A stretch of 64,000 nucleotides of DNA from an uncultured virus (IMG/VR IMGVR_UViG_3300021387_000129) (IMGVR_UViG_3300021387_000129); one strand, 5' to 3'; shown: positions 32,868 through 63,158, numbered from the stretch's first letter. Translations and numbers: made by a program. The notes: generated by a model not told the origin, from the sequence alone.

Positions 32868-32892
32868 ATAATAGGCGATGTTTTTATTGCGA
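32868..32892 (-). promoter_or_regulatory. Phage promoter motif
   Basis: TCGCA ATAA AAACA TCGCCT ATTAT|AGAGG. Confidence 0.75.
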
Positions 32893-32896
32893 GTTT

Positions 32897-34060
32897 TTAA
32901 AACCGAAAAAAGTCACTTTCATTGAAGTTCTTCTTCGCTTTGAGTGCCTTTGCAATCGCGAGATCAATCTGCGATCTTGTCATGAGATGATAATAAAAAA
33001 GATCTTTGAACGGAGTGTTCAAACGATCAATACGTCCAGCAGCCTGGATCATCTGTTTGTAAGAATAAGATTGGCTGTAGAAAATCACGGTGTCTGTTTC
33101 TGTGCAATTCCAGCCTTCTGCGCCTGCTGTATATTGTACGACATACGCCCACGATTTCCCTTTCGGAATATCATCATGTTGATGACCATTCCACTCCTTC
33201 ACCACAACTGGTAGTGTTCGGAGAATGTCGAGCTCGTAATTAAAGTTATAGAATATTATTACGCGCGGGTGCTCGCGAAGGATCTCACAAATCTTTTCCT
33301 TCCTGCACAGATCCTCATTCACGATACGCCGCAGCACTCGACACAATCCACCTGCATCCTGCAATGGCTCATTGAGATATGGATCCCATCTGTTTCGAAT
33401 AACTTCCTTACTCTTCACAACATCATATGGAAGATAGATCGTCTCATGATGCTGCTCGGTCTTCTTCTGAAAATTCATCTGCACCAATATATCGCGTCGG
33501 TGCTTTACAAGTCGTCCCTCATCAAAATACTTCTGCACCTTTGGATACTTGCTGAATCGACTCCACACAACATGCTGCATCGTAAAATCAGTTCGGTTGC
33601 GATAAAATCCATTTGCAATAAATACTGGAACATAATCCATCCATGTGTCGCCTGGTGTGGCAGACAATAAGATCCATCGGTTGGCTTTGGCAATCCTGAG
33701 AAATGCTTTCACCCATGCGCCAGATCCGACGACTCGTTGCTCATCAAATATGAAGAACGCTCCGCGTACCATGGCGTACTTGGATATGTTATTCCAGGAG
33801 TCGATGGTTGCCTTCAGATGTTTGAAGCGGTCCAGCTCCTGTTGCCATTCGCCTGTGTCTCTTTTTCGCGCTGTCGTGATAATATACAGATCCTTGGTCT
33901 GCTTGAATTTCAGAGGTATCAGCGAACCTCTCAGTTCTCTCAACACAAAATAAGAGAGCGATGTTATGGACTTGCCGGACCCGACCCCACCACACAGGAT
34001 GGAGCCGGAGCCCAGCTTCAAAACCGCTTCGCTCTGATGAGGAAACAGTTTAATGTCCAT
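32897..34060 (-). CDS. SF2 (SNF2-like) helicase
   Basis: GVGSGKS, FIFDEQ, LSATP, QAAGRIDR. Confidence 0.88.
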   Translation of the reverse strand: MDIKLFPHQSEAVLKLGSGSILCGGVGSGKSITSLSYFVLRELRGSLIPLKFKQTKDLYIITTARKRDTGEWQQELDRFKHLKATIDSWNNISKYAMVRGAFFIFDEQRVVGSGAWVKAFLRIAKANRWILLSATPGDTWMDYVPVFIANGFYRNRTDFTMQHVVWSRFSKYPKVQKYFDEGRLVKHRRDILVQMNFQKKTEQHHETIYLPYDVVKSKEVIRNRWDPYLNEPLQDAGGLCRVLRRIVNEDLCRKEKICEILREHPRVIIFYNFNYELDILRTLPVVVKEWNGHQHDDIPKGKSWAYVVQYTAGAEGWNCTETDTVIFYSQSYSYKQMIQAAGRIDRLNTPFKDLFYYHLMTRSQIDLAIAKALKAKKNFNESDFFRF

Positions 34061-34587
34061 TATGCTTCAACAAGCTGATAGTCTGCATACTTGCCGCCGA
34101 AATCATTCACACTCTCGACGCTTGCCCACATGTTCTTCAGATAACCCTTGGTAGCTCCTTCGAATCCGCGATTGTGCGTGTAGGGATGAATATCCATATC
34201 GATGTTGACGAGATTATCCTGGTCCAGTTTGAAATACTGATCAGGCGTCATCAGCACCATGGATTTCTTGCCCATGAATTCGCTAAGCTTGTAGATCTTC
34301 GGGGGATATGAACTCTGATCATTCACGACGATCTCGGTATAGAACAAACGTTCGCCGTCATCCAGTTCGCGAACCTTAATATTCCATCCACTGCTCTTCA
34401 GCCGATCAGCAAATTCGGGGGACAGGCAAAGATTAAATGTACGCTTGCCGCCAGCAGGATTCAGGTTGGTAGGCTTACCAGCAAAGTTCTTGAAAATGAT
34501 AGAAGCGTTATCAATGCGAATATTTCCATCCGCAAGGAAAGAGAACGTAGAGTTGTTAACAGCCTTAATAGCATCCAGATACTTCAT
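34060..34587 (-). CDS. Putative ssDNA-binding protein
   Basis: Between polymerase and helicase; beta-rich IIFKNFAG..GKRTFNL...KGYLKNM. Confidence 0.5.
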   Translation of the reverse strand: MKYLDAIKAVNNSTFSFLADGNIRIDNASIIFKNFAGKPTNLNPAGGKRTFNLCLSPEFADRLKSSGWNIKVRELDDGERLFYTEIVVNDQSSYPPKIYKLSEFMGKKSMVLMTPDQYFKLDQDNLVNIDMDIHPYTHNRGFEGATKGYLKNMWASVESVNDFGGKYADYQLVEA

Positions 34588-34590
34588 AAA

Positions 34591-37500
34591 TCAAATCTCC
34601 TTTTCTTTATCAGTCCACGGCATAGAAATGTCTTCACTATGCACAAATGTGTCGAAATCTGTAAACTTGGAAATAGTTTCGATTGCAGCGTCATCCAACG
34701 CTCTGAAATAATCCATGTCGATGTTGTCCTCGTATTTTATTCTTGCAACTTCCTCTGCCTCGAGCCAGCGATATCCCTTCGTGCCTGCAACGGAATCATA
34801 CTTGCCTGTTGTAGATTTACGATATAGAATACCGCCACCTTTACCAGGTTTGATCGGACAGAATACACCAGCTTTACCAACAAACCGATACTTGTGCTCT
34901 CCTTCTGCAAGATCCTCATTCATGTCAAGATACATATCCGTCTGAACCGTTCTTGTCTCGCAAAGATCTGGGAATATGATCGGCTCCTTTGAGAATAAGG
35001 TCTTGAATACATATGGGTTCTTGTCTTTCAGAAATTGAGCACCGGTTGCTGTCCAGCGGGTTGGTTCGGGTTTGCCTTCGGCTTCTGCGGTCGCCTTCTC
35101 TTCCTGCCATCCTGGGTCTTCGGTTGATCGCTTGGCAACATATACAGCATCGTTCACCAGGCAGATACGATCGTAAATGTCTTCCACCTCAAAGGTGTAT
35201 CCCCATTCTTTCCCATACTTGAGAATGAAGTTAGATATCTCACTGCTAGGGTGGACCACCTTGATCGAGTCTGTCTTGATATGAACCACTTCACCGCCCA
35301 TCTCCTGCACCTTCAGCCGCAGTGATTCCATAAATAAAGCCCCTCGCTTCGCCACCCAGTTATCAACGTTGCGGGGATCCTTAAATTTATTGGGGAATTT
35401 GGCTGCAGTCAAACCGTATACAGAATTGATGGCGATCTTCAGTGCTCCGCTGAGCTGCTTGGCCATCTTCGGATCGTCCAGGTATTTTGCAAGCTTGCCG
35501 TCCAGCATATGCCGTGCACTGTCGAAGTCCTTATGCTTGATCGCGATTCGAATATCCATAAGCTGCTTGAACCGCTCTGTATACTTGCCAAAGCCGTTCT
35601 CCGCAATTATGCTGGATGGATGCATGCTGGCAACGTCATAGGTGATCACGTCACGATATGCACCGGGCTTCGCATATACGCGTCCTCCTTCACCGATCAG
35701 TTCCTCACCATAATAACTCTTGCCACCTTCGAACCGATACTCAGGGAAATACTTCTTCAGGTCCGGATAAACAAACTGGTTCTGAGGTTCGGGGTCGTTA
35801 CCAAAAATGATCTTGGTTGTCAATTGGTTGGTCGTGTCGTTCACTGTCATGTCAGCGATCTCGGCCAGAATCTTCCTTGCTGTGAAATCCGCCTGTCGTG
35901 CATTGAATACAGCTTCGGTCGCAATAACATCGTTGTCGCAATATTCCGCAACCTGCGCCCACATCTCTTCAGGCACTGGCTGATCCCAAGGCAACCCTAA
36001 TTCCTGATGATGAATTCCAAGCTCGATCTCGAATTTCTTCAATCCTTGCTTCTTGCTTGAGAAATCATACACATCCGTATAGCTGATGTTCAGCGCTTCA
36101 CGAAATGGACAGCGGTTGCCATTCACAATAATATCCTGGCTGAGTTCATACAATTGCTGGTTGTTGTACCCAAGATAACAGGCATAGAGTAGGAAGTTAT
36201 CATAACCCCGACAGTTAAACCCGACTAACTTCATGTTAAATAAAAGTTCCATGTCAGAAGGCTTTGGGTTGATCAGTCGGATGCACTTCTTGTTCTCGCC
36301 CGCAGGCTTATAGTTCACCAGAAACAGATTGGGAAATACTTCCACGTCAAAGAATGTAATCGGCGCATCATCCTGCCATTCAGGAATAAATACCTTGATA
36401 TCGGGTTGCTCTTCAACTTCCTTCGGCCATCGTAGTTCCATCTGATAATACTTGTTCACGCAATATTCCGCGTTATGGCTGCTATTCGCAGCAAATGCGT
36501 AAATGGCATTATCCAGATCCTGCAGGTCATAGGAAACTCCGGCAGCCTGTGCATCCTTCAGCAATTTGTCGATGAAATCAATACTGGTCTTGGTAGCAAA
36601 TGGTTCAATCTCTTTCTTTAGTGCCTTAATAACCAGCGCTCGTAGATGCTTTTCGTTTTCGATCTCCTTCTTGTTAAACACTTTCTTGTCCTTAAGTGGC
36701 AGCCCGCTTGAAATATGAGCGATGGGAAGATCATTACACATGGATACTCGCCTGCGCAACGCAAAGTCTCCAACCTGTACTTTCAATTCCACATCTTCCT
36801 CGATAACCCGACGTAAATCATTCGGATCACCGTCATACCAATACATGCTGTGAATACCCTGTCCACCATTGCTGAGCTCCGCATAGGTGGGTGGAAATTT
36901 TTCAGCAGCTTCCCGGTTCAGTTCAAAATCCTTCTCGCCTTTATCATTCTTCTTGTCAAAATCGATACAAATAAGCGTTGGGAACATCTGAACCATATGA
37001 GTCTGGCTTGTGTCGAGTTCTCTGAGTTTGGTGGTATTGTTCTCCCACTTCCGCATCTGCTTTCCGAAATACTGAGCTGGTTGATCCGCCAATATGTCAT
37101 CCAGCAAAGAATGCTGTTCTGCGAATTTGAGCCATCCGGCGCGAGCTGCCTCCATCTCCTTTCCTTCGTCAGACTCATCAAGGCAGAACTTCTCCATCTT
37201 CAAACCATTAAAGTAGTTACGAACAGTTGCACCATTTATCCTGGCAAATTCTTTAAACTCGACAAAATAATTCTTGGCCTCGCTGTAAACCTGAAAACGC
37301 TTCATCGTCCGTTCGATATTACTATCAATACACCATTGCTTATACAATGCCCAAATACGATCGCCGTTAATTCCATCTTCACGTTTGAAATACTCCATAT
37401 TATCAAGCATAAAATTAAAGAAGGCATTCGTTCGTAGCATCATACGTTTAGGACGATATGAACTGTAATATGATTCTCCAAGCGTCCTATAAACTTGCAG

Positions 37501-38508
37501 ACAATGATATGCGATCGCACCAAGTTCGTAATCAACCTTTTTGACTAGTTTATCATATCGCTCTACTGGTCTAACAAGTTCACCAGTTGGTTCAACATCA
37601 ATAAGTCTTCGAATAATACCACTGTTTGAATCTGTGATTTTGACAGGGGTATTTGTAGCCATAAAAAGCATACAATTAGCTTCTGAAGTATACGCGCGTT
37701 TATACTTCTCATTAATACGTAACTTATCATGGCTAACAATTTGGTTAAGCACAGTGTTATCTTCAATCTTGTCCAACTTTGCTTCATGATCCAGGGCAAC
37801 CAACGGATCTTTTGCAAAAGCATCGAGCGAAAACTGATCTGAACCGCTGACCAATGATTTGGCATCGAACTTTGCGCAATATCCGCCATCACTTTGATAA
37901 CCGCCAAACAACTTTTCAATAATGTCCATGATGGTCGATTTACCACTGCCTTGCGGACCGTGGAATACAATGAACTTTTGAATATGGTTCACTTCTCCCG
38001 CAAGTACAGCGCCAATTGCCCATTCAAACTTCTGACGTTCAACAGGAGCATATAATGTAGTGGCCAGCTCATCATATGCACTAGTATCTCCTTCGCGTAC
38101 AGAATAAGACAACCGTTTACTTGAATGGTCTTCTTTTGTTGGTTTGGTGTCCGCGAATGTGAGTTTTAGATCGAATGGCGAATAATTATCCGAAAGATTT
38201 TTAACGTATAGGATGAAATTGTTCCACATTCTCGTAGAACTGTCTTTCATGGTTTTGATGACATAATGATTTCCACTACCATATTTTTGCTTAGCACGCT
38301 CAAATTCTTCGTACAAATCCTTGTCGACCAGTCTTTGTACTTGCATGATATCTCGGTGCCACTTCTGAGCTTCTTCATCCCATACAGCATAAAACTCGCC
38401 GCCTTGAATCATGAGGTCTTTGGATTTAATAACGAGGAACTCGGGATAAACTTCAAACAGCCCGGGCTTAGGGTTCCGAGTTCGAACCTCGTAAAAATCC
38501 AGCGCCAC
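34591..38508 (-). CDS. SF3 helicase - primase - 3'-5' exonuclease - family B DNA polymerase fusion
   Basis: 1305 aa: GPQGSGKS and FMATN (SF3); CIDFD..SNGGQGIH (AEP-like); FFDVEV, GFN..YD, YCDNDV (Exo I-III); YDVASMHPS, KIAINSVYG, IKTDS (PolB). Confidence 0.9.
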   Translation of the reverse strand: MALDFYEVRTRNPKPGLFEVYPEFLVIKSKDLMIQGGEFYAVWDEEAQKWHRDIMQVQRLVDKDLYEEFERAKQKYGSGNHYVIKTMKDSSTRMWNNFILYVKNLSDNYSPFDLKLTFADTKPTKEDHSSKRLSYSVREGDTSAYDELATTLYAPVERQKFEWAIGAVLAGEVNHIQKFIVFHGPQGSGKSTIMDIIEKLFGGYQSDGGYCAKFDAKSLVSGSDQFSLDAFAKDPLVALDHEAKLDKIEDNTVLNQIVSHDKLRINEKYKRAYTSEANCMLFMATNTPVKITDSNSGIIRRLIDVEPTGELVRPVERYDKLVKKVDYELGAIAYHCLQVYRTLGESYYSSYRPKRMMLRTNAFFNFMLDNMEYFKREDGINGDRIWALYKQWCIDSNIERTMKRFQVYSEAKNYFVEFKEFARINGATVRNYFNGLKMEKFCLDESDEGKEMEAARAGWLKFAEQHSLLDDILADQPAQYFGKQMRKWENNTTKLRELDTSQTHMVQMFPTLICIDFDKKNDKGEKDFELNREAAEKFPPTYAELSNGGQGIHSMYWYDGDPNDLRRVIEEDVELKVQVGDFALRRRVSMCNDLPIAHISSGLPLKDKKVFNKKEIENEKHLRALVIKALKKEIEPFATKTSIDFIDKLLKDAQAAGVSYDLQDLDNAIYAFAANSSHNAEYCVNKYYQMELRWPKEVEEQPDIKVFIPEWQDDAPITFFDVEVFPNLFLVNYKPAGENKKCIRLINPKPSDMELLFNMKLVGFNCRGYDNFLLYACYLGYNNQQLYELSQDIIVNGNRCPFREALNISYTDVYDFSSKKQGLKKFEIELGIHHQELGLPWDQPVPEEMWAQVAEYCDNDVIATEAVFNARQADFTARKILAEIADMTVNDTTNQLTTKIIFGNDPEPQNQFVYPDLKKYFPEYRFEGGKSYYGEELIGEGGRVYAKPGAYRDVITYDVASMHPSSIIAENGFGKYTERFKQLMDIRIAIKHKDFDSARHMLDGKLAKYLDDPKMAKQLSGALKIAINSVYGLTAAKFPNKFKDPRNVDNWVAKRGALFMESLRLKVQEMGGEVVHIKTDSIKVVHPSSEISNFILKYGKEWGYTFEVEDIYDRICLVNDAVYVAKRSTEDPGWQEEKATAEAEGKPEPTRWTATGAQFLKDKNPYVFKTLFSKEPIIFPDLCETRTVQTDMYLDMNEDLAEGEHKYRFVGKAGVFCPIKPGKGGGILYRKSTTGKYDSVAGTKGYRWLEAEEVARIKYEDNIDMDYFRALDDAAIETISKFTDFDTFVHSEDISMPWTDKEKEI

Positions 38509-38529
38509 CCGATCACCTCCTTTCCATGA

Positions 38530-43952: not shown

Positions 43953-44165
43953 TCATTTCCTACTATAGGAGATGTCCATTTTGCGAGTTTCTGTCCGATC
44001 TACTTTACCAAACAGTTCAGGAGTATGCTTGAATAACTGACCGGCCGCCTCCATGCGTTTATACATGGCAAGCACCTGAGCATCCGGCATCTCCTTCACC
44101 TTTCTGCGCCACCTGTCTCCAGGATATACCTCTCCAAGAGCACTCCGCATGGATTCAACCGTCAT
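43953..44165 (-). CDS. Hypothetical protein
   Basis: MRSALGEVYPGDRWRRKVKEMPDAQVLAMY; AGGAGG RBS. Confidence 0.7.
   Translation of the reverse strand: MTVESMRSALGEVYPGDRWRRKVKEMPDAQVLAMYKRMEAAGQLFKHTPELFGKVDRTETRKMDISYSRK
43962..43986 (-). promoter_or_regulatory. Phage promoter motif
   Basis: TCGCA AAAT GGACA TCTCCT ATAGT|AGGAA. Confidence 0.7.
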
Positions 44166-45323: not shown

Positions 45324-45349
45324 GGAGCCATGTGTTTCCACACAGCTCC
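45324..45349 (-). terminator. Repeated cassette terminator, family A
   Basis: GGAGCTGTGTG-GAAA-CACATGGCTCC plus T-tract; identical at 48156 and 49190. Confidence 0.8.
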
Positions 45350-45714: not shown

Positions 45715-45739
45715 ATTATCAGCGTTGTTTTTACTGCGA
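45715..45739 (-). promoter_or_regulatory. Phage promoter motif
   Basis: TCGCA GTAA AAACA ACGCTG ATAAT|GGAGA. Confidence 0.75.
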
Positions 45740-46855: not shown

Positions 46856-46880
46856 ATAATAAGCATTGTTTTGTTTGCGA
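46856..46880 (-). promoter_or_regulatory. Phage promoter motif
   Basis: TCGCA AACA AAACA ATGCTT ATTAT|AGGAG. Confidence 0.75.
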
Positions 46881-48143: not shown

Positions 48144-48185
48144 AGCGAAAGAAAAGGAGCCATGTGTTTCCACACAGCTCCAAAT
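48144..48185 (-). repeat. 42-bp exact repeat containing family A terminator
   Basis: Identical to 49178-49219. Confidence 0.85.
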
Positions 48186-48460: not shown

Positions 48461-48485
48461 ATATACAGCGTTGTTTCTACTGCGA
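48461..48485 (-). promoter_or_regulatory. Phage promoter motif
   Basis: TCGCA GTAG AAACA ACGCTG TATAT|AGGGA. Confidence 0.75.
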
Positions 48486-48654: not shown

Positions 48655-48679
48655 ATCATGAGTGTTGTTTTTACTGCGA
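48655..48679 (-). promoter_or_regulatory. Phage promoter motif
   Basis: TCGCA GTAA AAACA ACACTC ATGAT|AGGAG. Confidence 0.75.
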
Positions 48680-49177: not shown

Positions 49178-49219
49178 AGCGAAAGAAAAGGAGCCATGTG
49201 TTTCCACACAGCTCCAAAT
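49178..49219 (-). repeat. 42-bp exact repeat containing family A terminator
   Basis: Identical to 48144-48185. Confidence 0.85.
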
Positions 49220-49563: not shown

Positions 49564-49588
49564 ATTATCAGCGTTGTTTCTACTGCGA
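49564..49588 (-). promoter_or_regulatory. Phage promoter motif
   Basis: TCGCA GTAG AAACA ACGCTG ATAAT|GGAGA. Confidence 0.75.
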
Positions 49589-49597: not shown

Positions 49598-49758
49598 AAA
49601 AAAGAAAGGACTTGTGGGCTTCGAACCCACGTCTCCACATACATGGTGTTCTACCATTAAACTATTCTATCGGCTAGTAAAACCGAGACAGAATTTCTTC
49701 CGCTTTTACGCCTTTCAACGCTCGGCCCTCCGACGGGTTTATACTCCCAATCCTTCCT
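49598..49758 (-). ncRNA. Promoter-driven ~160-nt structured RNA with tRNA-like D and T arms
   Basis: Starts at predicted +1 of promoter 49759-49783; 5' AGGAAGGATT pairs with 3' AGTCCTTTCT before a T-tract; contains TAGTTTAATGGTAGAAC and GTGGG-TTCGAAG-CCCAC. Confidence 0.65.
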
Positions 49759-49783
49759 ATTTATAGGGATGTTTAAGTTGCGA
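49759..49783 (-). promoter_or_regulatory. Phage promoter motif
   Basis: TCGCA ACTT AAACA TCCCTA TAAAT|AGGAA. Confidence 0.72.
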
Positions 49784-50267: not shown

Positions 50268-50292
50268 ATTATAGGGTATGTACATTTTGCGG
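50268..50292 (-). promoter_or_regulatory. Phage promoter motif
   Basis: CCGCA AAAT GTACA TACCCT ATAAT|AGAAG. Confidence 0.7.
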
Positions 50293-50574: not shown

Positions 50575-50599
50575 ACTATAGGGTATGTACATTTTGCGA
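50575..50599 (-). promoter_or_regulatory. Phage promoter motif
   Basis: TCGCA AAAT GTACA TACCCT ATAGT|AGACG. Confidence 0.72.
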
Positions 50600-50607: not shown

Positions 50608-50629
50608 GGGCCATGCATAAGCACAGCCC
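50608..50629 (-). terminator. Repeated cassette terminator, family B
   Basis: GGGCTGTGC-TTAT-GCATGGCCC; identical at 52377-52398, variant at 54793-54814. Confidence 0.8.
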
Positions 50630-51002: not shown

Positions 51003-51027
51003 ATCATTAGCTATGTTTCAACTGCGA
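51003..51027 (-). promoter_or_regulatory. Phage promoter motif
   Basis: TCGCA GTTG AAACA TAGCTA ATGAT|GAGAA. Confidence 0.72.
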
Positions 51028-51627: not shown

Positions 51628-51652
51628 ACTGTAGGCAATGTTTATTATGCGA
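51628..51652 (-). promoter_or_regulatory. Phage promoter motif
   Basis: TCGCA TAAT AAACA TTGCCT ACAGT|AGGAG. Confidence 0.72.
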
Positions 51653-51660
51653 AAAAATTA

Positions 51661-51684
51661 AGGGCCCGTGTTTCCACGAACCCT
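51661..51684 (-). terminator. Repeated cassette terminator, family C
   Basis: AGGGTTCGTG-GAAA-CACGGGCCCT; variants at 52128-52152 and 52837-52858. Confidence 0.8.
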
Positions 51685-51692
51685 TTAAGTTC

Positions 51693-52363: not shown

Positions 52364-52404
52364 AAGAAAAAAGTAAGGGCCATGCATAAGCACAGCCCAA
52401 TAAG

Positions 52405-52771: not shown

Positions 52772-52796
52772 ATTATAAGGATTGTTCCTACTGCGA
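52772..52796 (-). promoter_or_regulatory. Phage promoter motif
   Basis: TCGCA GTAG GAACA ATCCTT ATAAT|GAACC. Confidence 0.72.
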
Positions 52797-52865
52797 GCTC
52801 CGCACCCCTTCACTACGTTTAGCGGGAAAAAAGAAAGGCCCCGTGTTTCCACGAAGCCCCTTTGA

Positions 52866-53220: not shown

Positions 53221-53268
53221 TCCTTGGTAAGGATGAGGTCGCCGGTTCGAATCCGGCCATCAGCTCCA
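53221..53268 (+). other. attP: attP core: 3' part of tRNA-Thr(GGT)
   Basis: TC-CTTGGTAA-GGATG AGGTC GCCGG-TTCGAAT-CCGGC CATCAGC TCCA gives anticodon loop, T arm, acceptor 3' strand and CCA, with no 5' half; 45 bp from the integrase stop. Confidence 0.85.
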
Positions 53269-53312: not shown

Positions 53313-54446
53313 TTATCCTGTAGACTCCTCGGAAGATCTCATACTTTGAGAATTGTCCAGTGTTTTGTCCGGTTGAGGGTCATTCATGACGAGTCTGACG
53401 CTCTCAAATAATTCGGTTCTGTACTTCACATAGCGTTTCTCTGTTATGTCGCTCTTGGAATGACCAAGCATGCGTGAAATAACGTCCACAGGAATGCCTG
53501 ATTCACGCCATTCAGTAGCACACGTATCACGAAAATCATGTGCTGTGTATTGCTGCAAGTCAAATTGGCACCTGATCCGGTTAAATTCCCGCTTAGCCTC
53601 TGAATAAGATAGCGGAGTTTCCCGTTTACCCTCATCCAGATAGCTGCTGAGAATAAAACCAGTAGCATACTTCGGCTTTAATGTCTCCCATACGACTTTT
53701 GGCAAGGGAATTTCCCTGTCGCTCGTCTTGGATTTTGGTGGTTTGATCTCTGGCTGATTCCTCGTTGGATGAACAACAGCCCTTTGAATATGCACCCAGC
53801 CCGTCTGAGGATCAATATCTTCCCATTTAAGACCGAGCACTTCTTCAAATCGCAGACCCAAATAACACAGGAGTACAGCCATATTCCGAGTACGACTTAC
53901 AGGCATTTGCGAGATTTGAGCTCTTACTTCTGCCATCTTTTCACGAGGTATAGCCTGATGATGCGTCGTAGCTGCCCCTCCAATTACCAGTTTCTCCGAC
54001 TTCATTGGATTTCGGGAAATATGTCCATCTTCTACAGCTGAATTCAGCGCAGGAGACATGTTATTCTTGATTTTAAGCAGCGTCTCATGGGAATATCCGT
54101 CCTTCTCCAGCTGGTTAAACCACTCCTGCAATCCTGTAGTGGTGATCTGGTCTACAGGAATGCTACCCCACTTGGGAAGAATATGCTTGCTTACGATGTA
54201 CGCTCTTGAACTCTTGGTTAATGACTGCTGTTTAGACTTGTAAACCTTGTTGAACTCCTGTAGATAGCTTCCAAATAAAGGTTCTTTTGGCTTTGGCTTC
54301 TCTATATGGCTGATGATGCCAGGCATGACGGTGCCCTCCTGGAGACACAGTTGCAAATATCCTTCAAGCAGCTCCTTGAGGGTTTTGCCTGTCACCCAGC
54401 ACTCTTTACCACCAATATTCATCTGCTGCTTATAGCGCTTAGGCAT
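53313..54446 (-). CDS. int: Tyrosine integrase
   Basis: Catalytic R (LGLRFEE), K (PKSK), HxxR (HDFR), H (LGH), Y (KRYV); SAM-like core-binding region; start moved to MPKRY (GAAGGAG RBS). Confidence 0.93.
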   Translation of the reverse strand: MPKRYKQQMNIGGKECWVTGKTLKELLEGYLQLCLQEGTVMPGIISHIEKPKPKEPLFGSYLQEFNKVYKSKQQSLTKSSRAYIVSKHILPKWGSIPVDQITTTGLQEWFNQLEKDGYSHETLLKIKNNMSPALNSAVEDGHISRNPMKSEKLVIGGAATTHHQAIPREKMAEVRAQISQMPVSRTRNMAVLLCYLGLRFEEVLGLKWEDIDPQTGWVHIQRAVVHPTRNQPEIKPPKSKTSDREIPLPKVVWETLKPKYATGFILSSYLDEGKRETPLSYSEAKREFNRIRCQFDLQQYTAHDFRDTCATEWRESGIPVDVISRMLGHSKSDITEKRYVKYRTELFESVRLVMNDPQPDKTLDNSQSMRSSEESTG

Positions 54447-54560
54447 GGTTTCTCCTTCTGCGCAAAGCCCTATTCCGTTTACAAGGTTCAGCAATATACC
54501 AAGGACCTGACTTTGAGTATAAAGAACCTCAGACATGAAGTCAACTCCTGTAATTCATGA

Positions 54561-54782: not shown

Positions 54783-54842
54783 AAAAATAAAAGAGCCATG
54801 CGTATGCACAGCTCTATGAGAATGATTAACCAAGAACCTTCT

Positions 54843-55516: not shown

Positions 55517-55687
55517 TCACCCCTCTTTGCAACTGTCATTCTTTTTAAGCCATTCCATCACAACCATCCGTACAAGCCCAGAAACCGTCATACCACGTTT
55601 GGCCGCTTTTGCTTTCAGATGATTCAGCACAGCCGGAGAGAAAAAGACATTGATTCGCTCAGAGTTTTCTGGCGATTTAGGGGACAT
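55517..55687 (-). CDS. Ribbon-helix-helix (CopG/Arc-like) regulator, 56 aa (not in ORF track)
   Basis: ERINVFFSPAVLNHLKAKAAKRGMTVSGLVRMVVMEWL; GAGGAGGT RBS. Confidence 0.8.
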   Translation of the reverse strand: MSPKSPENSERINVFFSPAVLNHLKAKAAKRGMTVSGLVRMVVMEWLKKNDSCKEG

Positions 55688-55708: not shown

Positions 55709-55737
55709 ATTGTATCACCCTTTTATCATCATGTAAA
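55709..55737 (-). promoter_or_regulatory. Host sigma70/sigmaA-type promoter of the RHH gene
   Basis: TTTACA-17 bp-TACAAT with TGn extension; TATCAYC direct repeats in the spacer. Confidence 0.7.
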
Positions 55738-57479: not shown

Positions 57480-57504
57480 ATTTAGAGCGTTGTTTTTACT
57501 GCGA
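57480..57504 (-). promoter_or_regulatory. Phage promoter motif
   Basis: TCGCA GTAA AAACA ACGCTC TAAAT|AGAGA. Confidence 0.75.
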
Positions 57505-57551: not shown

Positions 57552-57686
57552 ATAAAACTTCTTTTTTCGTGTTTTTCCACACAGGTTGCACTTGCACAAA
57601 AACACGCCGACGTGTAAACCAGAATAGTCCCAATAATCATAAATTGGCTTGTCAGTTATCTTATGCCATTTGTGAATACAAAACAT
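57549..57686 (-). CDS. 45-aa Zn-finger-like protein (not in ORF track)
   Basis: MFCIHKW...CKCNLCGK; stop codon is the TAA arm of the 57538-57551 site. Confidence 0.55.
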   Translation of the reverse strand: MFCIHKWHKITDKPIYDYWDYSGLHVGVFLCKCNLCGKTRKKKFY

Positions 57687-57697
57687 TTGTTAATCTC

Positions 57698-57817
57698 CTA
57701 TTTTGGTTTCTTTTCGCAATAGTCCCTAAACGGACACCATGAACAAGCAAACGACCGTGCAGGGCAATCCGTATCGGGACTATCTATCGTAATGGGAGAA
57801 AATCCTTCTCCAATCAT
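57698..57817 (-). CDS. 39-aa Cys-rich peptide (not in ORF track)
   Basis: MIGEGF...CPARSFACSWCPFRDYC; AAGGTGG RBS. Confidence 0.5.
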   Translation of the reverse strand: MIGEGFSPITIDSPDTDCPARSFACSWCPFRDYCEKKPK

Positions 57818-57836
57818 TGCACATCACCACCTTTGT

Positions 57837-57851
57837 TAATGTGTTATTTTA
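57837..57851. repeat. TAA-N8-TTA-like boundary site
   Basis: TAA TGTGTTAT TTTA, overlapping the stop of the 57849-60569 gene. Confidence 0.55.
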
Positions 57852-60569: not shown

Positions 60570-60940
60570 TTTATCCTCCAAAAGAAGCTGGGAATTTCAG
60601 ATCCTGAATCCCAGCTATCATAATAATCACCATCAATGATTGCCACAGCATGACTTCCTGTTCCAATAATATATACCCCTCTGGGATACATCTTGGTAAA
60701 CAGATCAATCGTCACACATGTTGGGCAGTTATCAGGAAGGAGAAACGGTTCAAATCCCATTTGATAAAGATACTTGCCCCAGACTGCGTCCGCGACAGGA
60801 ATATTGAACTCTTTTCGACCAAGAGCACACAGATCGTCATAAACATCGATCCATCTCCGGTTCAGAGCAATAGTAATAGCACGAATAACACAGTCTGGGA
60901 CTTCTTTGTGAGCAGGGTTCGGGTTACATCTCATCCACAT
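60566..60940 (-). CDS. Small papain-like (Cys-His-Asp) enzyme
   Basis: DCVIRAI...SHAVAIIDGDYYDSWDSG. Confidence 0.6.
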   Translation of the reverse strand: MWMRCNPNPAHKEVPDCVIRAITIALNRRWIDVYDDLCALGRKEFNIPVADAVWGKYLYQMGFEPFLLPDNCPTCVTIDLFTKMYPRGVYIIGTGSHAVAIIDGDYYDSWDSGSEIPSFFWRIK

Positions 60941-61193
60941 GAGCTTCGTCGCTCCATGGTTCTTCGTAGCTCATAGCCCTTTCGCTGTCGCCAATTCCCT
61001 GAGTGGTAGGATCAACCAGCACACCGATCAGACCTAAGAAGGTCAAGATTTGACTGGCAACCTTCATCATGGTGTTTTCAGTCACGATCGGAACCACGTC
61101 AAACAGCTCCAGCATGCTGAATACAAATCCAATGATCAGCGACACGAACATCGTGAGCCAGGTTTTATTTTTGAACCGTACTTTCCAATTCAT
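60924..61193 (-). CDS. Holin (phiLC3-like)
   Basis: MNWKVRFKNKTW, two TM helices, GVLVDPTTQGIGDSERAMSYEEP. Confidence 0.9.
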   Translation of the reverse strand: MNWKVRFKNKTWLTMFVSLIIGFVFSMLELFDVVPIVTENTMMKVASQILTFLGLIGVLVDPTTQGIGDSERAMSYEEPWSDEAHVDEM

Positions 61194-61215
61194 GATATCT
61201 CTCCTTCCAAATCAT

Positions 61216-61247
61216 AAAAATAGGGGCCAGCACTATGCCAGCCCCTT
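61216..61247 (-). terminator. Intrinsic terminator
   Basis: AGGGGCTGGC-ATAGT-GCTGGCCCCT followed by ATTTTT. Confidence 0.7.
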
Positions 61248-61252
61248 AGAAA

Positions 61253-61606
61253 TCACCAAGGCATTTCGGGCGGATACATACGCCTCATGGCTTCAGAATA
61301 TCCCCTGGAATAACCTTCATTGTAGCTGCGGCCACCTTCACGGCTCACATACTGGCCGGTGCTAGGGCTTCGACCGCGGCGCCCGGACATCCCACCATCA
61401 TCACCAGACATGCCCTGGAACTCATACTCGCCTTCGCCCATTTCTTTCTCGATCTGCTCAATCCGCATCTGCTTCTCCAGTGCCATCGTCAGGCACTTGT
61501 ACATTTCAGCATCCGCGGCAGTGAATTCGCTCTTGTTGGCGTATTGGGCATCAAGCTTCTCGAGCTCCTCCTTAGCAACCCGCTTCAGATTTTTCAGTTC
61601 CTTCAT
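61253..61606 (-). CDS. Helical protein with Gly/Arg/Ser/Tyr-rich tail
   Basis: MKELKNLK..EELEK; SGRRGRSPSTGQYVSRE..GYS. Confidence 0.75.
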   Translation of the reverse strand: MKELKNLKRVAKEELEKLDAQYANKSEFTAADAEMYKCLTMALEKQMRIEQIEKEMGEGEYEFQGMSGDDGGMSGRRGRSPSTGQYVSREGGRSYNEGYSRGYSEAMRRMYPPEMPW

Positions 61607-61620
61607 CTCAATGCCCTCCT

Positions 61621-62067
61621 TTACGCAACCCTGTTCACTTTAACGTTCAGGTTTCGAGTGATAATTGGAATATCCGCCGTAGCGTTAACTACTGCGACAT
61701 CCGTGCAACACCCGACCGGAACATCAATTGTGGTGTCACCGCTCACATGCCAGAACTCTTCCACCGCAGCAGGTGTAGCAACAGCAATGGTCAGCGGCCG
61801 AACAAATCCGTTCACACTCAGGGCCAGCTGAATTTCTCCTACGGTCCCATCCGTGTCTACTGCAATGTTTCCACTAAAACTAACGCTGTACTGAGCGCGG
61901 GCATTGCAGCAAGGGTTACGCACAATTCCACGAAGCCGAAGATTAGGCGTCTGGTCATCATGCACGACATTCTGCGGACATTTGGTGCAGGGTCGTACAT
62001 TTTCAAGAATTGCAGCTGCTCCGGGCTGGAGCGTCTGCGCTTGTACATATCCGTATTCTGCTGACAT
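61621..62067 (-). CDS. Cys-containing beta-sandwich protein (BclA C-terminal / C1q-like)
   Basis: YSVSFSGNIAV...IQLALSVNG...VAVVN...NLNV; CxxC and CC pairs; start moved to MSAEY. Confidence 0.55.
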   Translation of the reverse strand: MSAEYGYVQAQTLQPGAAAILENVRPCTKCPQNVVHDDQTPNLRLRGIVRNPCCNARAQYSVSFSGNIAVDTDGTVGEIQLALSVNGFVRPLTIAVATPAAVEEFWHVSGDTTIDVPVGCCTDVAVVNATADIPIITRNLNVKVNRVA

Positions 62068-62162
62068 AACAGCACTTCCTTTCAAAATTGACTTTTAATG
62101 TCAAAGAAGGGGCACGACATCCCCCATGAGATATGGAAATGCGGCCCCTAAATGAATACTAA

Positions 62163-62924
62163 TTACCCAGCGTATCCACCGCAGCCGCCATAGCCGAAGC
62201 CATTAGCGCAGCAATTGGGATTCTGCACTATGTAAGCAGGGCGCGGAACCGGAGCCAGATACTGCTCCAGTGCGGCTGTCTGAGCTTCGTTATTGGCGAT
62301 AATCGCAGCACGATCAGCAGTACGGGCAATGCCGTTGCGAAGGTCGAGGTTCTCAGCACGAACGGCATCAATTGTGTTCTGCATGCCGGCAATACGGTTC
62401 TCGTAATTCTGCTTGATGCCGTCGAGTTCGAGCTGGCACAGCTTATCCATCACAGCCTGGTGATTGGCATTGCAGTTGGCACGGGTGTTTGCCCCTTCCT
62501 GAGCGATGGCAGTCTGCAATCCGGCAGTAGCCAGTCGGTTCTCACAGCAGCAGTTCTGAAATGCGCTCTGCAGTGCAAAGTTCTGGTTCATCTCAGCCAT
62601 CTGACGGCTATTCGCACCGATTTCAGCCTGAGCAAAACCATTGGCGATTGCCTGATTCACTCCCGCGAAGCCGTTGCACTGGGCAGTCGTGAGGTTGTTG
62701 ATGCCATTCATCACAGCATTCTGGTCGAAGCCCCTCTGAATATCCGCGTTCATAAAACCGCCGCCATTATTACCTCCGAATCCTCCGCCAAAGCCGTTGC
62801 CCCAGCCAAGAACCGCCAACAGGATAATGATCCACCAGGCACCGTTTCCTCCAAACATACCATCATTCATTCCACCGTACGCAGGCGCTACGGGCATATA
62901 CATTCCATTGTTTTCACCAGTCAT
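62163..62924 (-). CDS. Gly-rich TM plus coiled-coil protein with CCC motif
   Basis: WWIIILLAVLGWG flanked by GGFGG repeats; long heptad region with QNCCCENR; C-terminal NPNCC..GCGG. Confidence 0.8.
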   Translation of the reverse strand: MTGENNGMYMPVAPAYGGMNDGMFGGNGAWWIIILLAVLGWGNGFGGGFGGNNGGGFMNADIQRGFDQNAVMNGINNLTTAQCNGFAGVNQAIANGFAQAEIGANSRQMAEMNQNFALQSAFQNCCCENRLATAGLQTAIAQEGANTRANCNANHQAVMDKLCQLELDGIKQNYENRIAGMQNTIDAVRAENLDLRNGIARTADRAAIIANNEAQTAALEQYLAPVPRPAYIVQNPNCCANGFGYGGCGGYAG

Positions 62925-63133
62925 ACTATTTTCCTCCTAAAAATATAGCGGTCGTTTGAGTTAATGTAGCGATAAGTTATCTAAAGAAAGTTAGTAGCCC
63001 AATGGAACCACCTCCTTTCAATTTGATAAGGAAACCGTATAAATAACTTTTTCTGTTTTGATCGATCAAGAATAGAAGAAGTTACTTATCAGAAATAAAA
63101 AAGAAGAGAGAGGCACATTCTGTATCCCTCTCT

Positions 63134-63158
63134 ATAATAAGGCATGCTTTTATTGCGA
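63134..63158 (-). promoter_or_regulatory. Phage promoter motif
   Basis: TCGCA ATAA AAGCA TGCCTT ATTAT|AGAGA. Confidence 0.72.

What the first reader, a model, noticed from the sequence alone, without database searches (positions are those of the whole stretch)
32868..63158. 19 copies of a fixed-geometry, non-sigma70 promoter YCGCA-N6-ACA-N10-T|R
Seen: 19 minus-strand copies (one degenerate; listed in features) align without gaps over 25 bp, all at gene boundaries, and I found none in the structural region (1-28 kb). The terminal ATAAT resembles a -10 box, but at 48655, 51628 and 55005 the Shine-Dalgarno starts on the very next base. At 46856, 49759 and 63134 a terminator stem starts on that same purine. 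Inference: +1 is the purine after the T, placing TCGCA at -25..-21 and ACA at -14..-12, one helical turn apart. That does not fit sigma70 and is the obvious cognate promoter for the phage RNAP.
Basis: partly seen in the sequence, partly recalled or inferred. Interest (0 to 1): 0.88.

Follow-up and report, generated by a model that had tools for sequence, protein, structure and literature searches.

The report
Conserved promoter for phage two-barrel polymerase
A 25-base signal repeated about 18 times in this gut phage is almost certainly a promoter, and it travels with the phage's own unusual RNA polymerase across phages of distant bacteria, which gives a direct way to test an enzyme family never studied at the bench.

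Summary
There are 18 strong copies plus one weak copy (55005), all on the minus strand and all at gene boundaries. The consensus is TCGCA-N6-ACA-N5-nATAAT followed by a purine run. Shuffled sequence gives 1.2 matches.

The phage RNA polymerase is the 978-aa ORF at 29001-31937. It is a YonO/QDE-1-type two-barrel enzyme (DFDGD motif, PHROG 4291) with helix-turn-helix domains at both ends. It is not the 910-aa collagen-like tail fibre.

The same fixed geometry occurs in Gordonia, Streptomyces, Arthrobacter and Lactococcus phages and in Clostridia prophages that carry this polymerase.
- 68 of 74 loci keep a copy about 0.9 kb upstream of the polymerase gene.
- In five host genomes, all 13 hits lie on the contig and strand of a polymerase gene.
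- 22 of 23 near-complete viral contigs with the motif encode the polymerase.

Across the lineage the last hexamer is T-W-T-W-A-T, often TTTTAT. That is not the TA...T pattern of a sigma-A -10 box. Ribosome sites or 5' hairpins start within a few bases of the final T.

So a non-sigma-70, phage-specific promoter is well supported. That the phage polymerase reads it is the best inference, but it is untested: no transcript start has been mapped and no RNA data exist.

The motif is in print for Gordonia DJ phages as a "TATAAT" motif. Earlier notes of this scan saw it on other DNA.

The parts
63134..63158 (-). Promoter copy (GCA variant of the ACA box). It sits in the late tail-fibre/lysis module. 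A hairpin from +1 plus a T-run follows it.
   Evidence: (42.1 bits)
57480..57504 (-). Promoter copy downstream of the collagen-like tail-fibre gene; first of the small-gene region.
   Evidence: 44.1 bits
55005..55029 (-). Degenerate, doubtful copy (CCGCA ... TTA ... TATTAT). GGAGG starts at +1 and ATG at +10.
   Evidence: below 12 bits
53107..53131 (-). Promoter copy next to the att-like tRNA fragment.
   Evidence: (44.2 bits)
52772..52796 (-). Promoter copy, after a terminator.
   Evidence: 33.2 bits
52339..52363 (-). Promoter copy, after a terminator.
   Evidence: 41.3 bits
52095..52119 (-). Promoter copy; Shine-Dalgarno from +3.
   Evidence: (34.4 bits)
51628..51652 (-). Promoter copy directly after a terminator; AGGAGG starts at +1 and ATG at +16.
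   Evidence: (36.9 bits)
51003..51027 (-). Promoter copy; Shine-Dalgarno from +6.
   Evidence: (32.3 bits)
50575..50599 (-). Promoter copy; 5' hairpin from +4.
   Evidence: (37.2 bits)
50268..50292 (-). Promoter copy (CCGCA); 5' hairpin from +4.
   Evidence: (34.2 bits)
49759..49783 (-). Promoter copy upstream of a partial tRNA-like element. No ORF follows.
   Evidence: (37.3 bits)
49564..49588 (-). Promoter copy; 5' hairpin from +3.
   Evidence: (45.2 bits)
48655..48679 (-). Promoter copy overlapping the stop codon of the upstream ORF; AGGAGG starts at +1 and ATG at +14.
   Evidence: (34.0 bits)
48461..48485 (-). Promoter copy; 5' hairpin from +1.
   Evidence: (36.2 bits)
46856..46880 (-). 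Promoter copy; 13-bp hairpin from +1 followed by a T-rich tail (attenuator-like).
   Evidence: (40.7 bits)
45715..45739 (-). Promoter copy; 5' hairpin from +2.
   Evidence: (44.6 bits)
43962..43986 (-). Promoter copy inside the 3' end of the upstream ORF.
   Evidence: 33.0 bits
32868..32892 (-). Promoter copy 931 bp upstream of the polymerase gene, ahead of the nuclease genes. A hairpin plus T-run follows it. This position is conserved in relatives.
   Evidence: (51.8 bits)
29001..31937 (-). 978-aa single-chain two-barrel RNA polymerase. It carries R491-x-P493, GADFDGD at 540-546, and HTH domains at about 47-73, 86-124 and 937-969.
   Evidence: phrog_4291, E 0; pLDDT 81; QDE-1, RDR2 and P23-45-type RNAPs are the top fold matches
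31942..32502 (-). Cas4/RecB-like exonuclease between the 32868 promoter and the polymerase gene. The same gene order is seen in relatives.
28600..28690 (-). G+C-rich block conserved in relatives (cos-like) between the polymerase operon and the late genes. It holds no copy of the motif.

Best explanation
The repeat is a phage-lineage-specific promoter spanning about -25 to +6. The phage's own single-chain two-barrel RNA polymerase (ORF 29001-31937) most likely reads it.

Proposed mechanism (inferred, not shown):
- Built-in helix-turn-helix modules of the polymerase contact TCGCA (-25..-21) and ACA (-14..-12). These two boxes lie one helical turn apart on one face of the DNA.
- The A/T hexamer T-W-T-W-A-T (-6..-1) is the melting region.
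- RNA starts at, or within a base or two of, the purine after the final T, and runs into a purine-rich initial sequence.
- Each small gene is its own unit of promoter, then 5' hairpin or ribosome site, then gene, then intrinsic terminator.
- One copy, with an attenuator-like hairpin, drives the exonuclease-polymerase operon, which would make a feed-forward loop.

Shown here:
- the motif, its strand bias and its gene-boundary positions;
- its conservation with fixed geometry across phages of two phyla;
- its confinement to polymerase-bearing (pro)phages;
- the non-sigma conservation pattern of the hexamer;
- the polymerase fold.

Inferred: which enzyme reads it, the exact +1, and the role of the HTH domains.
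For: 1. The motif is real. 18 matches against 1.22 expected, all on one strand. Nothing else in 64 kb scores 12 bits or more.

2. The same geometry occurs in phages of unrelated hosts whose polymerase is 35-45% identical to this one.
- Gordonia Vardy: 8-9 copies.
- Streptomyces HotFries: 6-7 copies.
- Arthrobacter Mudcat: 6-7 copies.
- Lactococcus 1706: about 10 copies of ACA-N5-TATAGT|AGAAAG.

3. Prophage and phage loci found with the polymerase alignment (374 relatives, 80 kept).
- 68 of 74 usable loci have a copy scoring at least 12 of 16, mostly 880-1000 bp upstream of the polymerase gene on its strand (a few lie up to 1.5 kb). The opposite strand gives 7 of 74.
- At 14 or more of 16 there are 50 hits on the polymerase strand against 1 on the other.

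4. In 5 bacterial genomes (20.9 Mb), 13 of 13 hits lie on the contig and strand of a polymerase gene or fragment. The reversed-pattern control gives 0.

5. Of 31 IMG/VR contigs of 40 kb or more with the motif, 28 encode the polymerase. Among those at least 90% complete it is 22 of 23. The 3 without are same-lineage contigs that end before the expected polymerase position.

6. With the hexamer left unconstrained, 53 distinct sites give T50 / A23,T26 / T52 / A21,T31 / A50 / T52 out of 53. TTTTAT is the commonest hexamer, at 20.

7. The Shine-Dalgarno begins at +1 to +6 in 6-7 copies, and a 5' stem begins at +1 to +5 in 11 of 19.

8. No -35 box. Sigma-70-like sites are not enriched (40 against 42.4 expected), and none uses the motif's own hexamer.

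9. No sigma factor, T7-type polymerase or MotA/AsiA was found in the 85 minus-strand ORFs of 40 aa or more, scanned against Pfam over three calls (6, 55, 66).

10. The polymerase is real: PHROG 4291 at E 0, an invariant SGADFDGD and R-x-P-H in 58 sequences, and a model at pLDDT 81 whose 11 PDB matches at E 0.001 or better are all QDE-1/RDR2/phage two-barrel polymerases.

11. Precedent: phage P23-45 has two two-barrel polymerases, each with its own promoter motif (passages).
Against: - No transcript start, ChIP or in-vitro data exist for any member.
- In this window the hexamer is an acceptable sigma-A -10 box in most copies: A at the second position in 15 of 19 and T at the last in 19 of 19. 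The actinophage copies are perfect TATAAT. Two genome announcements read it as a sigma-70 -10.
- The polymerase gene lies downstream of a copy here and in 68 of 74 relatives. A promoter read only by the phage enzyme therefore needs some other source of the first polymerase molecules, and many relatives are integrated prophages.
- YonO, the only studied single-chain relative, transcribes late genes from one start. Here the late structural genes carry no copy.
- The units end in classical hairpin-plus-U terminators (30 found against 14.7 expected). These are typical of host polymerase, and this enzyme family is not known to obey them.
- Motif and polymerase are both markers of one lineage, so co-occurrence is partly ancestry.
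- The SPbeta yonN-yonK region, which contains the YonO start, has no similar motif.
Confidence: 0.55

Rival explanations
1. Host sigma-A holoenzyme reads the nATAAT hexamer as a -10 box, with a start about 7 nt downstream. The upstream TCGCA/ACA boxes, centred near -30 and -20 on that numbering, replace the -35 box as the site of a phage-encoded activator. That activator could be the HTH domains of the 978-aa protein acting as a transcription factor. The architecture would resemble T4 middle promoters. The phage polymerase would then transcribe only the late genes from an unidentified promoter near cos, as YonO does.
For: - TATAAT is the universal -10 consensus. The window copies have A at the second position in 15 of 19 and T at the sixth in 19 of 19.
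- This is the published reading for the DJ phages.
- The polymerase gene lies downstream of a copy, which fits early host-driven expression.
- YonO is a late-gene polymerase.
- The motif is absent from the 28-kb structural block.
- Intrinsic terminators bound the units.
Against: - Across 53 sites the critical second position is A in only 23, and TTTTAT is the commonest hexamer. No shifted register restores both the A and the final T.
- The conservation pattern is T.T.AT, the reverse of sigma's TA...T.
- A start at +7 would cut off the Shine-Dalgarno of 6-7 genes and the 5' stems of 11 copies. In 1706 the AGAAAGAAGG ribosome site also starts at +1.
- No conserved late promoter was found beyond a cos-like block.
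- No MotA/AsiA-like or sigma-like gene was found.
Confidence: 0.2
2. Dual use. The copies are read by the phage polymerase, but those with a good TATAAT are also weak -35-less promoters for host sigma-A. That would supply the first transcripts, including the polymerase mRNA, after infection or prophage induction.
For: - It solves the bootstrapping problem raised by the copy upstream of the polymerase gene.
- Hexamers range from perfect TATAAT to TTTTAT within single genomes.
- G is common two bases after the hexamer in the window (15 of 19).
Against: - The copy upstream of the polymerase gene, the very one that needs host reading, is most often the TTTTAT type in Clostridia prophages.
- No data exist.
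- A canonical sigma-A-like promoter is present elsewhere in the window and looks quite different: TTTACA-17-TACAAT with TG, at 55737-55709.
Confidence: 0.12
3. Host core polymerase is redirected by an unrecognised small phage sigma-like or appropriating factor that reads the motif. The 978-aa protein would be irrelevant to it.
For: - Dozens of small ORFs without any family match lie in the region.
- Phage-encoded sigma factors with unusual promoters are known in other phages (recalled, not tested here).
Against: - No sigma domain was found in any of the 85 minus-strand ORFs scanned.
- The small genes are not conserved across the lineage, while the motif is. According to the passages seen, the conserved blocks are the structural and replication genes plus the polymerase.
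- A -10-type reading has the same second-position and Shine-Dalgarno problems as the first rival.
Confidence: 0.08
4. It is not a promoter. It would be an RNA-level or DNA-level signal, such as a processing site, an operator or a recombination site, repeated at gene boundaries.
For: - Some copies overlap inverted repeats (53107, 49759).
- Three are followed at once by terminator-like hairpins.
Against: - It is strictly co-oriented with the genes.
- It lies just downstream of terminators and just upstream of ribosome sites.
- It ends in an A/T hexamer followed by a purine run, as promoters do.
- It has no dyad symmetry of its own.
Confidence: 0.03

Closest known systems
The '50-bp/43-bp intergenic motif with TATAAT' of Gordonia cluster DJ phages Vardy and Conley (PMC9671010, PMC10868162; passages read, figures not held)
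   Same: It is the same element. In Vardy's own sequence I find 8-9 copies of TCGCA-N6-ACA-N5-TATAAT followed by GAGACCCCTAC and a ribosome site. They lie in the central small-gene region, all on the coding strand.
   Different: The announcements read the TATAAT as a sigma-70 -10 box. In the passages I read they do not mention the polymerase, the upstream boxes, the fixed geometry or the occurrence in other host phyla. The window's copies lack the GAGACCCCTAC leader and start with AG/GG purine runs.
Promoters of the two two-barrel RNA polymerases of Thermus phage P23-45 (gp96 virion enzyme fused to the tape measure; gp64 non-virion enzyme) (bioRxiv 10.1101/2022.12.01.518664; listing abstract and passages read)
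   Same: - It is a siphophage with single-chain two-barrel polymerases that use their own short conserved motifs just upstream of mapped starts.
- That paper used presence or absence of the motif with the polymerase among relatives as support.
- The gp64-type and gp96 structures are among the fold matches of the window's enzyme.
   Different: - There the starts were mapped (ONT-cappable-seq) and polymerase occupancy was shown by ChIP-seq. Here nothing is measured.
- The motifs differ (AT-rich and GC-rich).
- Those enzymes have no terminal HTH domains, as far as the passages say.
T7-group (single-subunit, Pol A family) phage promoters
   Same: Both are one contiguous conserved block of about 23-30 bp. 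It ends in an A/T-rich stretch directly before +1 and has a purine-rich initial transcribed sequence. Both occur in many copies on one strand, each followed by a gene. (The features of T7 promoters are recalled, not checked by any search.)
   Different: The polymerase here is of an unrelated fold (two-barrel). No T7-type polymerase gene is present. The block reaches further upstream, to -25, with a bipartite upstream part.
YonO of Bacillus prophage SPbeta and its late promoter (PMC5467207; passages read)
   Same: It is a single-chain two-barrel phage polymerase of the same broad class, proven to be a DNA-dependent RNA polymerase. Its promoter sequence was left undefined by the authors.
   Different: YonO drives one late operon from one start, and no HTH fusions were reported in the passages read. 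I found no copy of the motif in the yonN-yonK region. The window's family is only distantly related: Pfam RdRP at E 0.033.
T4 middle promoters (MotA box near -30 plus sigma-70 -10 box; sigma appropriation) - recalled
   Same: A -10-like hexamer is combined with a conserved box about 14 bp upstream in place of a -35 box.
   Different: The hexamer here does not keep sigma's critical A. No MotA/AsiA homologues were found. Ribosome sites abut the hexamer.

Membership tests
sigma-70 / sigma-A promoter | A -35-like hexamer 16-18 bp upstream of the -10 hexamer | tested here: not met
   none of the 17 copies in 44-64 kb is listed with its own hexamer as the second hexamer. Sigma-70-like sites are not enriched (40 against 42.4 +/- 5.9); positions -35 to -26 carry at most 0.51 bits each. 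TCGCA lies 14 bp from the hexamer.
sigma-70 / sigma-A promoter | A -10 hexamer with near-invariant A at position 2 and T at position 6 (the rule is recalled) | tested here: not met
   of 53 sites in relatives, position 2 is A in 23 and T in 26. Positions 1, 3, 5 and 6 are 94-98% T, T, A, T. TTTTAT is the commonest hexamer (20). Within the window alone the rule is mostly kept: A in 15 of 19 and T in 19 of 19.
sigma-70 / sigma-A promoter | Start 5-9 nt downstream of the hexamer, dependent on host holoenzyme | not testable with these tools
   There are no RNA data. Indirectly, Shine-Dalgarno sites at +1 to +6 and stems from +1 to +5 argue against it.
T7-group single-subunit polymerase promoters | A Pol A-type phage RNA polymerase gene in the genome | tested here: not met
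   No such Pfam family was found in the 85 minus-strand ORFs of 40 aa or more. The window is 64 kb and may not be the whole genome.
T7-group single-subunit polymerase promoters | One contiguous conserved block ending in an A/T stretch at -1, with a purine-rich start | tested here: met
   conserved from -25 to about +3. There are no pyrimidines at +1 to +3 in 19 of 19 copies.
Cognate promoters of phage single-chain two-barrel RNA polymerases (P23-45 type, YonO type) | The genome encodes a two-barrel polymerase with the DxDGD catalytic loop | tested here: met
   SGADFDGD and R-x-P-H invariant in 58 sequences; pLDDT 81.1, pTM 0.72; QDE-1 at E 3e-6, phage gp64 polymerase at 3e-5, P23-45 gp96 at 3e-3.
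Cognate promoters of phage single-chain two-barrel RNA polymerases (P23-45 type, YonO type) | The motif is present where the polymerase is and absent where it is not | tested here: met
   (13 of 13 hits beside a polymerase gene in 20.9 Mb). (28 of 31 contigs; 22 of 23 near-complete). (68 of 74). (the 3 exceptions are truncated contigs). Caveat: all of this is one lineage, so ancestry contributes.
Cognate promoters of phage single-chain two-barrel RNA polymerases (P23-45 type, YonO type) | Starts mapped at the motif, and the polymerase binds and initiates there | not testable with these tools
   No RNA holder was listed. No paper with such data turned up in searches.
T4-type middle promoter (sigma appropriation) | MotA/AsiA-like activator and co-activator genes | tested here: not met
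   No Pfam hit. This is a weak test, since many small ORFs have no family at all.
Gordonia DJ-cluster repeated motif (Vardy, Conley) | An intergenic repeat in the central small-gene region containing TATAAT, 20-30 nt before a start codon | tested here: met
   description; the Vardy sequence shows the same TCGCA-N6-ACA-N5-TATAAT core as the window.

The most novel reading that the evidence does not exclude
The 978-aa enzyme is a self-sufficient polymerase with a built-in sigma. Its fused HTH modules read TCGCA/ACA, so it needs no host factor. That would explain why one promoter has stayed fixed while the lineage moved between Actinobacteria and Firmicutes.

In addition, the enzyme would be carried in the virion and injected. 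The invariant, disordered N-terminal peptide (L-x-H-Y-G-x-P-R-H-S-G-R-Y-P-W-G-S-G) would be a head-loading tag related to the DUF7211 tag on three head-module proteins. The incoming enzyme would then fire all 18 promoters at once and make more of itself from the 32868 copy.
Probability: 0.15. Interest if true: 0.9.

Novelty: new variant of a known kind. Interest (0 to 1): 0.72.

Why it matters
Single-chain two-barrel RNA polymerases are thought to resemble the ancestor of all cellular RNA polymerases. How any of them finds a promoter is poorly known, and the YonO promoter was left undefined.

This family is common. It gave 250 phage records and 374 loci in bacterial genomes. It is mostly annotated as a "helix-turn-helix DNA-binding protein" and has never been purified.

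A short, fixed-geometry, cross-phylum promoter candidate turns the question into a simple experiment: one protein, one 35-bp template.

If confirmed, three things would follow.
- It would define a new promoter class.
- It would explain gene expression in a large group of gut, dairy and soil phages.
- It could give an orthogonal expression system for Gram-positive and actinobacterial hosts.

If host sigma-A reads it instead, it would be an unusual -35-less promoter with a conserved activator site, which is still useful for annotation.

Tried and rejected
- Megablast of 44.0-60.6 kb against 50,697 phage records: no match.
- No whole genome is held for the window.
- Single-protein scan of genome contigs: 54 candidate stretches, none a relative. 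An alignment was needed.
- A 16-base motif scan of viral contigs gave 87 stretches, nearly all single, chance-like hits. It was useful only for L053, L065, L020 and L079.
- Sequencing runs: no RNA holder listed.
- SPbeta: the 1.7-kb yonN-yonK gap, which holds the YonO start, has no convincing copy. The best score was 11 on a scale where real copies score 13-14. I could not place the published coordinate on the phage record.
- Late promoter: aligning the region between the polymerase operon and the late genes in 5 phages shows only a conserved G+C-rich cos-like block. The window's TTGACA-N19-TAAAGT is not conserved.
- Head-loading tag on the polymerase (a lead from earlier scan notes).
  - DUF7211 is on three head-module proteins.
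  - The polymerase N-terminus does not hit DUF7211 at E up to 1.
  - BLASTP against the tagged proteins gives E 0.31 and 1.5.
  - A profile of the N-terminus from 58 polymerases hits the tagged proteins only at E 0.81 and 2.3.
  - This is not significant here. Only L-x-H-Y-G is shared.
- The first fold, from 10 sequences, was too poor to search (pLDDT 53.5). It was replaced by a 58-sequence alignment.
- Sequence and profile searches of the PDB gave only HTH matches plus a faint P23-45 hit at E 0.57.
- Covariation between promoter base -21 (A or G) and HTH residues was considered and dropped. Both bases occur within single genomes, so it is not a specificity switch.
- Literature searches found no paper that links this motif to the polymerase or maps starts in this lineage. 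The 1706 paper (Virology 2008) and the ReqiPepy6 paper were not available. Supplements of the bioRxiv preprints are closed and could hold relevant motif or proteome tables.

Full report
WHAT IS THERE

The window is a siphophage genome, or most of one, from an animal-gut metagenome. All genes are on the minus strand.

In the direction of transcription the order is as follows.
- Tail-fibre and lysis genes at 63.9-57.8 kb. These include a 910-aa collagen-like fibre, which is not a polymerase, and a holin.
- A small regulatory and integration stretch at 57.5-53.3 kb. It holds a CopG-like ribbon-helix-helix gene at 55517-55687 and a tyrosine integrase at 53313-54536.
- About 35 small genes without family matches at 53.1-43.7 kb.
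- Replication genes: primase-polymerase 34591-38508, SSB, and helicase 32897-34060.
- A Cas4-like nuclease at 31942-32502.
- A 978-aa ORF at 29001-31937.
- A G+C-rich cos-like gap at about 28.4-28.7 kb.
- The packaging, head and tail genes at 28.4-0.4 kb.

THE OBSERVATION

Shuffles gave mean 1.22 and a maximum of 4. Aligned, the copies share these features.
- T-25 C G C A-21.
- A-18.
- A-A-A-C-A at -16 to -12.
- C-10, C-8, T-7.
- n-A-T-a-A-T at -6 to -1.
- A purine run with no pyrimidine at +1 to +3 in 19 of 19 copies.

A weight matrix from the 19 copies (so their own scores are circular) finds 18 sites of at least 32 bits. Nothing else reaches 12 bits on either strand. The exact match at 22698 in the portal gene is therefore chance, and the 55005 copy is doubtful.

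All copies lie at gene boundaries, many directly after an intrinsic terminator. Terminator-like sites are enriched in 44-64 kb: 30 against 14.7 +/- 3.9 expected. Two terminator sequences are themselves repeated.

The hairpin-from-+1 claim holds at 46856 and 63134, and also at 32868. It does not hold at 49759.

THE POLYMERASE

ORF 29001-31937 matches PHROG 4291 end to end (E 0, 1035 bits).

It carries R491-x-P493 and GADFDGD at 540-546. These correspond to five of the eight residues listed as invariant in all two-barrel polymerases (passages of PMC2919709). Both motifs are invariant in 58 family members.

Pfam sees HTH domains at about 86-124 and 937-969. The second includes a sub-threshold Sigma70_r4_2 match at E 4e-4. 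A weaker HTH lies at 47-73. There is a faint RdRP match on the catalytic loop.

A 58-sequence AlphaFold model (pLDDT 81.1, pTM 0.72) has 11 PDB matches at E 0.001 or better. All are two-barrel enzymes: QDE-1, plant RDR2 and a P23-45-type phage gp64 polymerase. P23-45 gp96 and the crAss-like virion polymerase follow.

The family and its two terminal HTH domains were already predicted in print for Streptomyces BI, Arthrobacter AM/AU/AW, Gordonia DJ, Rhodococcus CC, Microbacterium EL, Lactococcus 1706-like and Faecalibacterium phages (Koert et al., bioRxiv 10.1101/842583; passages). tblastn finds it in 250 phage records at under 60% identity.

THE MOTIF TRAVELS WITH THE POLYMERASE

Closer relatives in IMG/VR (polymerase 64-99% identical) keep a copy about 1 kb upstream of the polymerase gene.

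The same geometry is present in phages of other phyla.
- Gordonia phage Vardy (52% G+C): 8-9 copies of TCGCA-N6-ACA-N5-TATAAT|GAGACCCCTAC-GAAAGGA-ATG.
- Streptomyces phage HotFries (61% G+C): 6-7 copies of TCGCA-N14-TATAAT-like|GAGACCCCTAC. The ACA box is kept in only some of them.
- Arthrobacter phage Mudcat: 6-7 copies beginning TCGCG.
- Lactococcus phage 1706 (33% G+C): about 10 copies of y-C-r-C-A...TTTTACA-N5-TATAGT|AGAAAGAAGG.

In each, the copies sit in the central small-gene region on the coding strand, with one degenerate copy ahead of the nuclease-polymerase genes.

For the DJ phages the repeat is in print as a "50-bp motif containing a TATAAT -10 sigma-70 sequence" (PMC9671010, PMC10868162; passages). 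In the passages I read it is not linked to the polymerase.

A scan of 185,579 species' genomes with a polymerase alignment found 374 loci, of which 80 were kept. They are mostly Clostridia and include prophages in cultured isolates.
- 68 of 74 usable loci have a copy scoring at least 12 of 16, mostly 880-1000 bp upstream of the polymerase gene on its strand. The other strand gives 7 of 74.
- At 14 or more of 16, hits are 50 on the polymerase strand against 1 on the other.
- In five host genomes (20.9 Mb) a degenerate pattern hits 13 times, and its reversed control 0 times. All 13 lie on the contig and strand of a polymerase gene. Ten are within 28 kb upstream of a full-length gene. Three are 5-9 kb upstream of a polymerase fragment.

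I tested 31 contigs of 40 kb or more from it, and 28 encode the polymerase. Among those at least 90% complete it is 22 of 23. The three exceptions are same-lineage contigs that break off before the expected polymerase position. I found no phage with the motif and without the polymerase.

This is strong co-occurrence. But both features mark one lineage, so part of it is shared ancestry.

WHY NOT SIGMA-A

1. There is no -35 box. TCGCA lies 14 bp from the hexamer. Positions -35 to -26 are uninformative. The consensus scan does not call any copy with its own hexamer, and it finds no enrichment: 40 against 42.4.

2. I defined sites in relatives by the upstream boxes and the purine run only, leaving the hexamer free. 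This gave 53 distinct sites on the polymerase strand against 2 on the other. They read T(50) W(A23/T26) T(52) W(A21/T31) A(50) T(52) out of 53, and TTTTAT is the commonest hexamer. Sigma-70-family -10 boxes are defined by the A at position 2 and the T at position 6 (recalled). Here positions 1, 3, 5 and 6 are fixed and position 2 is free. No shifted register rescues TTTTAT-GAAG or TTTTAT-GGAG.

3. A start about 7 nt downstream of the hexamer would remove the ribosome site of 6-7 genes: 55005, 51628, 48655, 52095, 53107, 51003 and perhaps 46856. It would also remove the 5' stems that begin at +1 to +5 in 11 of 19 copies. The gene after 51628 lies directly behind a terminator, so it depends on this promoter. 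In phage 1706 the ribosome site also starts at +1.

4. A canonical sigma-A-type promoter does exist in the window, TTTACA-17-TACAAT with TG, just upstream of the CopG-like gene. It looks nothing like the repeat.

5. No sigma factor, T7-type polymerase or MotA/AsiA was found in the 85 minus-strand ORFs.

- Nothing is measured, and no RNA run holds this DNA.
- In this window most hexamers would pass as -10 boxes.
- The polymerase gene is itself behind a copy, here and in most relatives. Many relatives are integrated prophages. So the first polymerase molecules must come from elsewhere.
- YonO, the only enzyme of this class studied in vivo, drives one late operon. Here the 28-kb late block has no copy, and I found no separate late promoter.
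- The SPbeta region that holds the YonO start has no similar motif.

Earlier notes of this scan suggested that the polymerase carries half of a head-loading tag, DUF7211, and is injected. That would solve the bootstrap for infection. In this window DUF7211 is on three head-module proteins. The polymerase N-terminus is invariant across 58 sequences and disordered in the model. But its likeness to the tag (L-x-H-Y-G) is not significant by Pfam, BLASTP or a profile. I keep that idea only as the bold reading.

MOST LIKELY MECHANISM

I put this at confidence about 0.55. That the element is a promoter of some kind I put at about 0.95.
- It is a phage-specific promoter from -25 to about +6, read by the two-barrel polymerase.
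- The HTH modules sit on TCGCA and ACA, one helical turn apart.
- Melting occurs in T-W-T-W-A-T.
- Initiation is on the following purine.
- Each early unit has a 5' hairpin or a 5'-terminal ribosome site and ends at an intrinsic terminator.
- Three copies (63134, 46856, 32868) run straight into a hairpin plus T-run. This looks like attenuation.
- The 32868 copy feeds the polymerase's own operon. After cos joining it possibly also feeds the late genes by read-through. That last point is speculation.

COMPARISON AND NOVELTY

The kind of thing, a dedicated promoter of a phage polymerase, is known from T7-type phages and, for two-barrel enzymes, from P23-45.

The polymerase family is predicted in print. 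The repeat is noted in two DJ genome announcements. Earlier notes of this scan also saw a promoter-like motif travelling with this polymerase on other DNA.

What I did not find in print:
- the fixed bipartite geometry;
- its conservation across Actinobacteria and Firmicutes phages;
- the T.T.AT pattern that separates it from a -10 box;
- the conserved copy ahead of the polymerase gene;
- the link to the polymerase.

I therefore rate it a new variant of a known kind. It is of high interest to phage-transcription specialists because it makes an untested polymerase family directly testable.

Noticed in passing
window 53221-53268 (plus strand): Read on the plus strand, this stretch looks like the 3' half of a tRNA (T-arm GGTTCGAATCC, acceptor end, CCA). 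It lies right beside the integrase gene (53313-54536), as an attP core would. ARAGORN calls no tRNA in the window.
   Followed up: no
window 49614-49664 (minus strand): A partial tRNA-like element: Rfam tRNA at 29.1 bits against a gathering score of 29, covering model positions 8-63 of 71. It lies downstream of the 49759 promoter copy, where no ORF follows. It may be a small RNA or a decayed tRNA.
   Followed up: partly
window 45324-45349, 48156-48181, 49190-49215; also 50608-50629, 52377-52398: The terminators are themselves repeats. There are three identical copies of a 26-nt hairpin (GGAGCTGTGTGGAAACACATGGCTCC) and two of a 22-nt hairpin. Related versions lie at 51660-51685, 52834-52861 and 54792-54815. 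This suggests the promoter-gene-terminator cassettes multiplied by duplication.
   Followed up: no
window 23174-23455, 23456-24361, 26069-27094 (minus strand): Three otherwise unrelated proteins in the head/packaging module carry the short DUF7211 peptide (...YAV...E-L/Y-L/M-A/H-H-Y/F-G-V/I-K/L-G-M-K/R-W-G) near their N-termini. Earlier scan notes propose it is a capsid-loading tag. The polymerase shares only L-x-H-Y-G with it.
   Followed up: partly
window 29001-31937, residues 16-33 of the protein: The most conserved stretch of the whole polymerase is an N-terminal peptide, L-x-H-Y-G-x-P-R-H-S-G-R-Y-P-W-G-S-G. Seven of its residues are invariant in 58 sequences. It is predicted disordered (pLDDT about 32). 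In two IMG/VR relatives, small ORFs near the genome start match the polymerase's first 40-100 residues.
   Followed up: partly
window 55709-55737 (minus strand): A canonical sigma-A-type promoter (TTTACA, 17 bp with TG, TACAAT) lies just upstream of a 56-aa CopG-like ribbon-helix-helix gene (55517-55687) near the integrase. It is a candidate host-read regulatory promoter.
   Followed up: no
window 28600-28690: A G+C-rich block (GGGGGAGGGGG ... CCCCCACCCCC ... ATCGCCGCCCTC) is conserved in four relatives between the polymerase operon and the late genes. It is probably the cos site.
   Followed up: partly
window 19749-21710 (minus strand): Prohead protease and major capsid protein are fused in one 653-aa ORF, as described for relatives of this lineage.
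   Followed up: no
L345 (G021) 5754-11066: In one IMG/VR relative the primase-polymerase gene is split in two (953 aa and 359 aa), with a thymidylate synthase gene and a small ORF in between.
   Followed up: no
L107 (Lactococcus phage 1706) 41634-42083: The gap upstream of the 1706 polymerase gene holds several copies of a roughly 35-bp repeat (ctatcacgaaaaaacttcgggaaaacttcggga) instead of the usual promoter copy.
   Followed up: no
G010:C1:296158-296445: A complete Clostridiales genome holds a 197-aa fragment of a second polymerase gene, 5-9 kb downstream of three motif copies. It looks like a decayed second prophage that kept its promoters.
   Followed up: no
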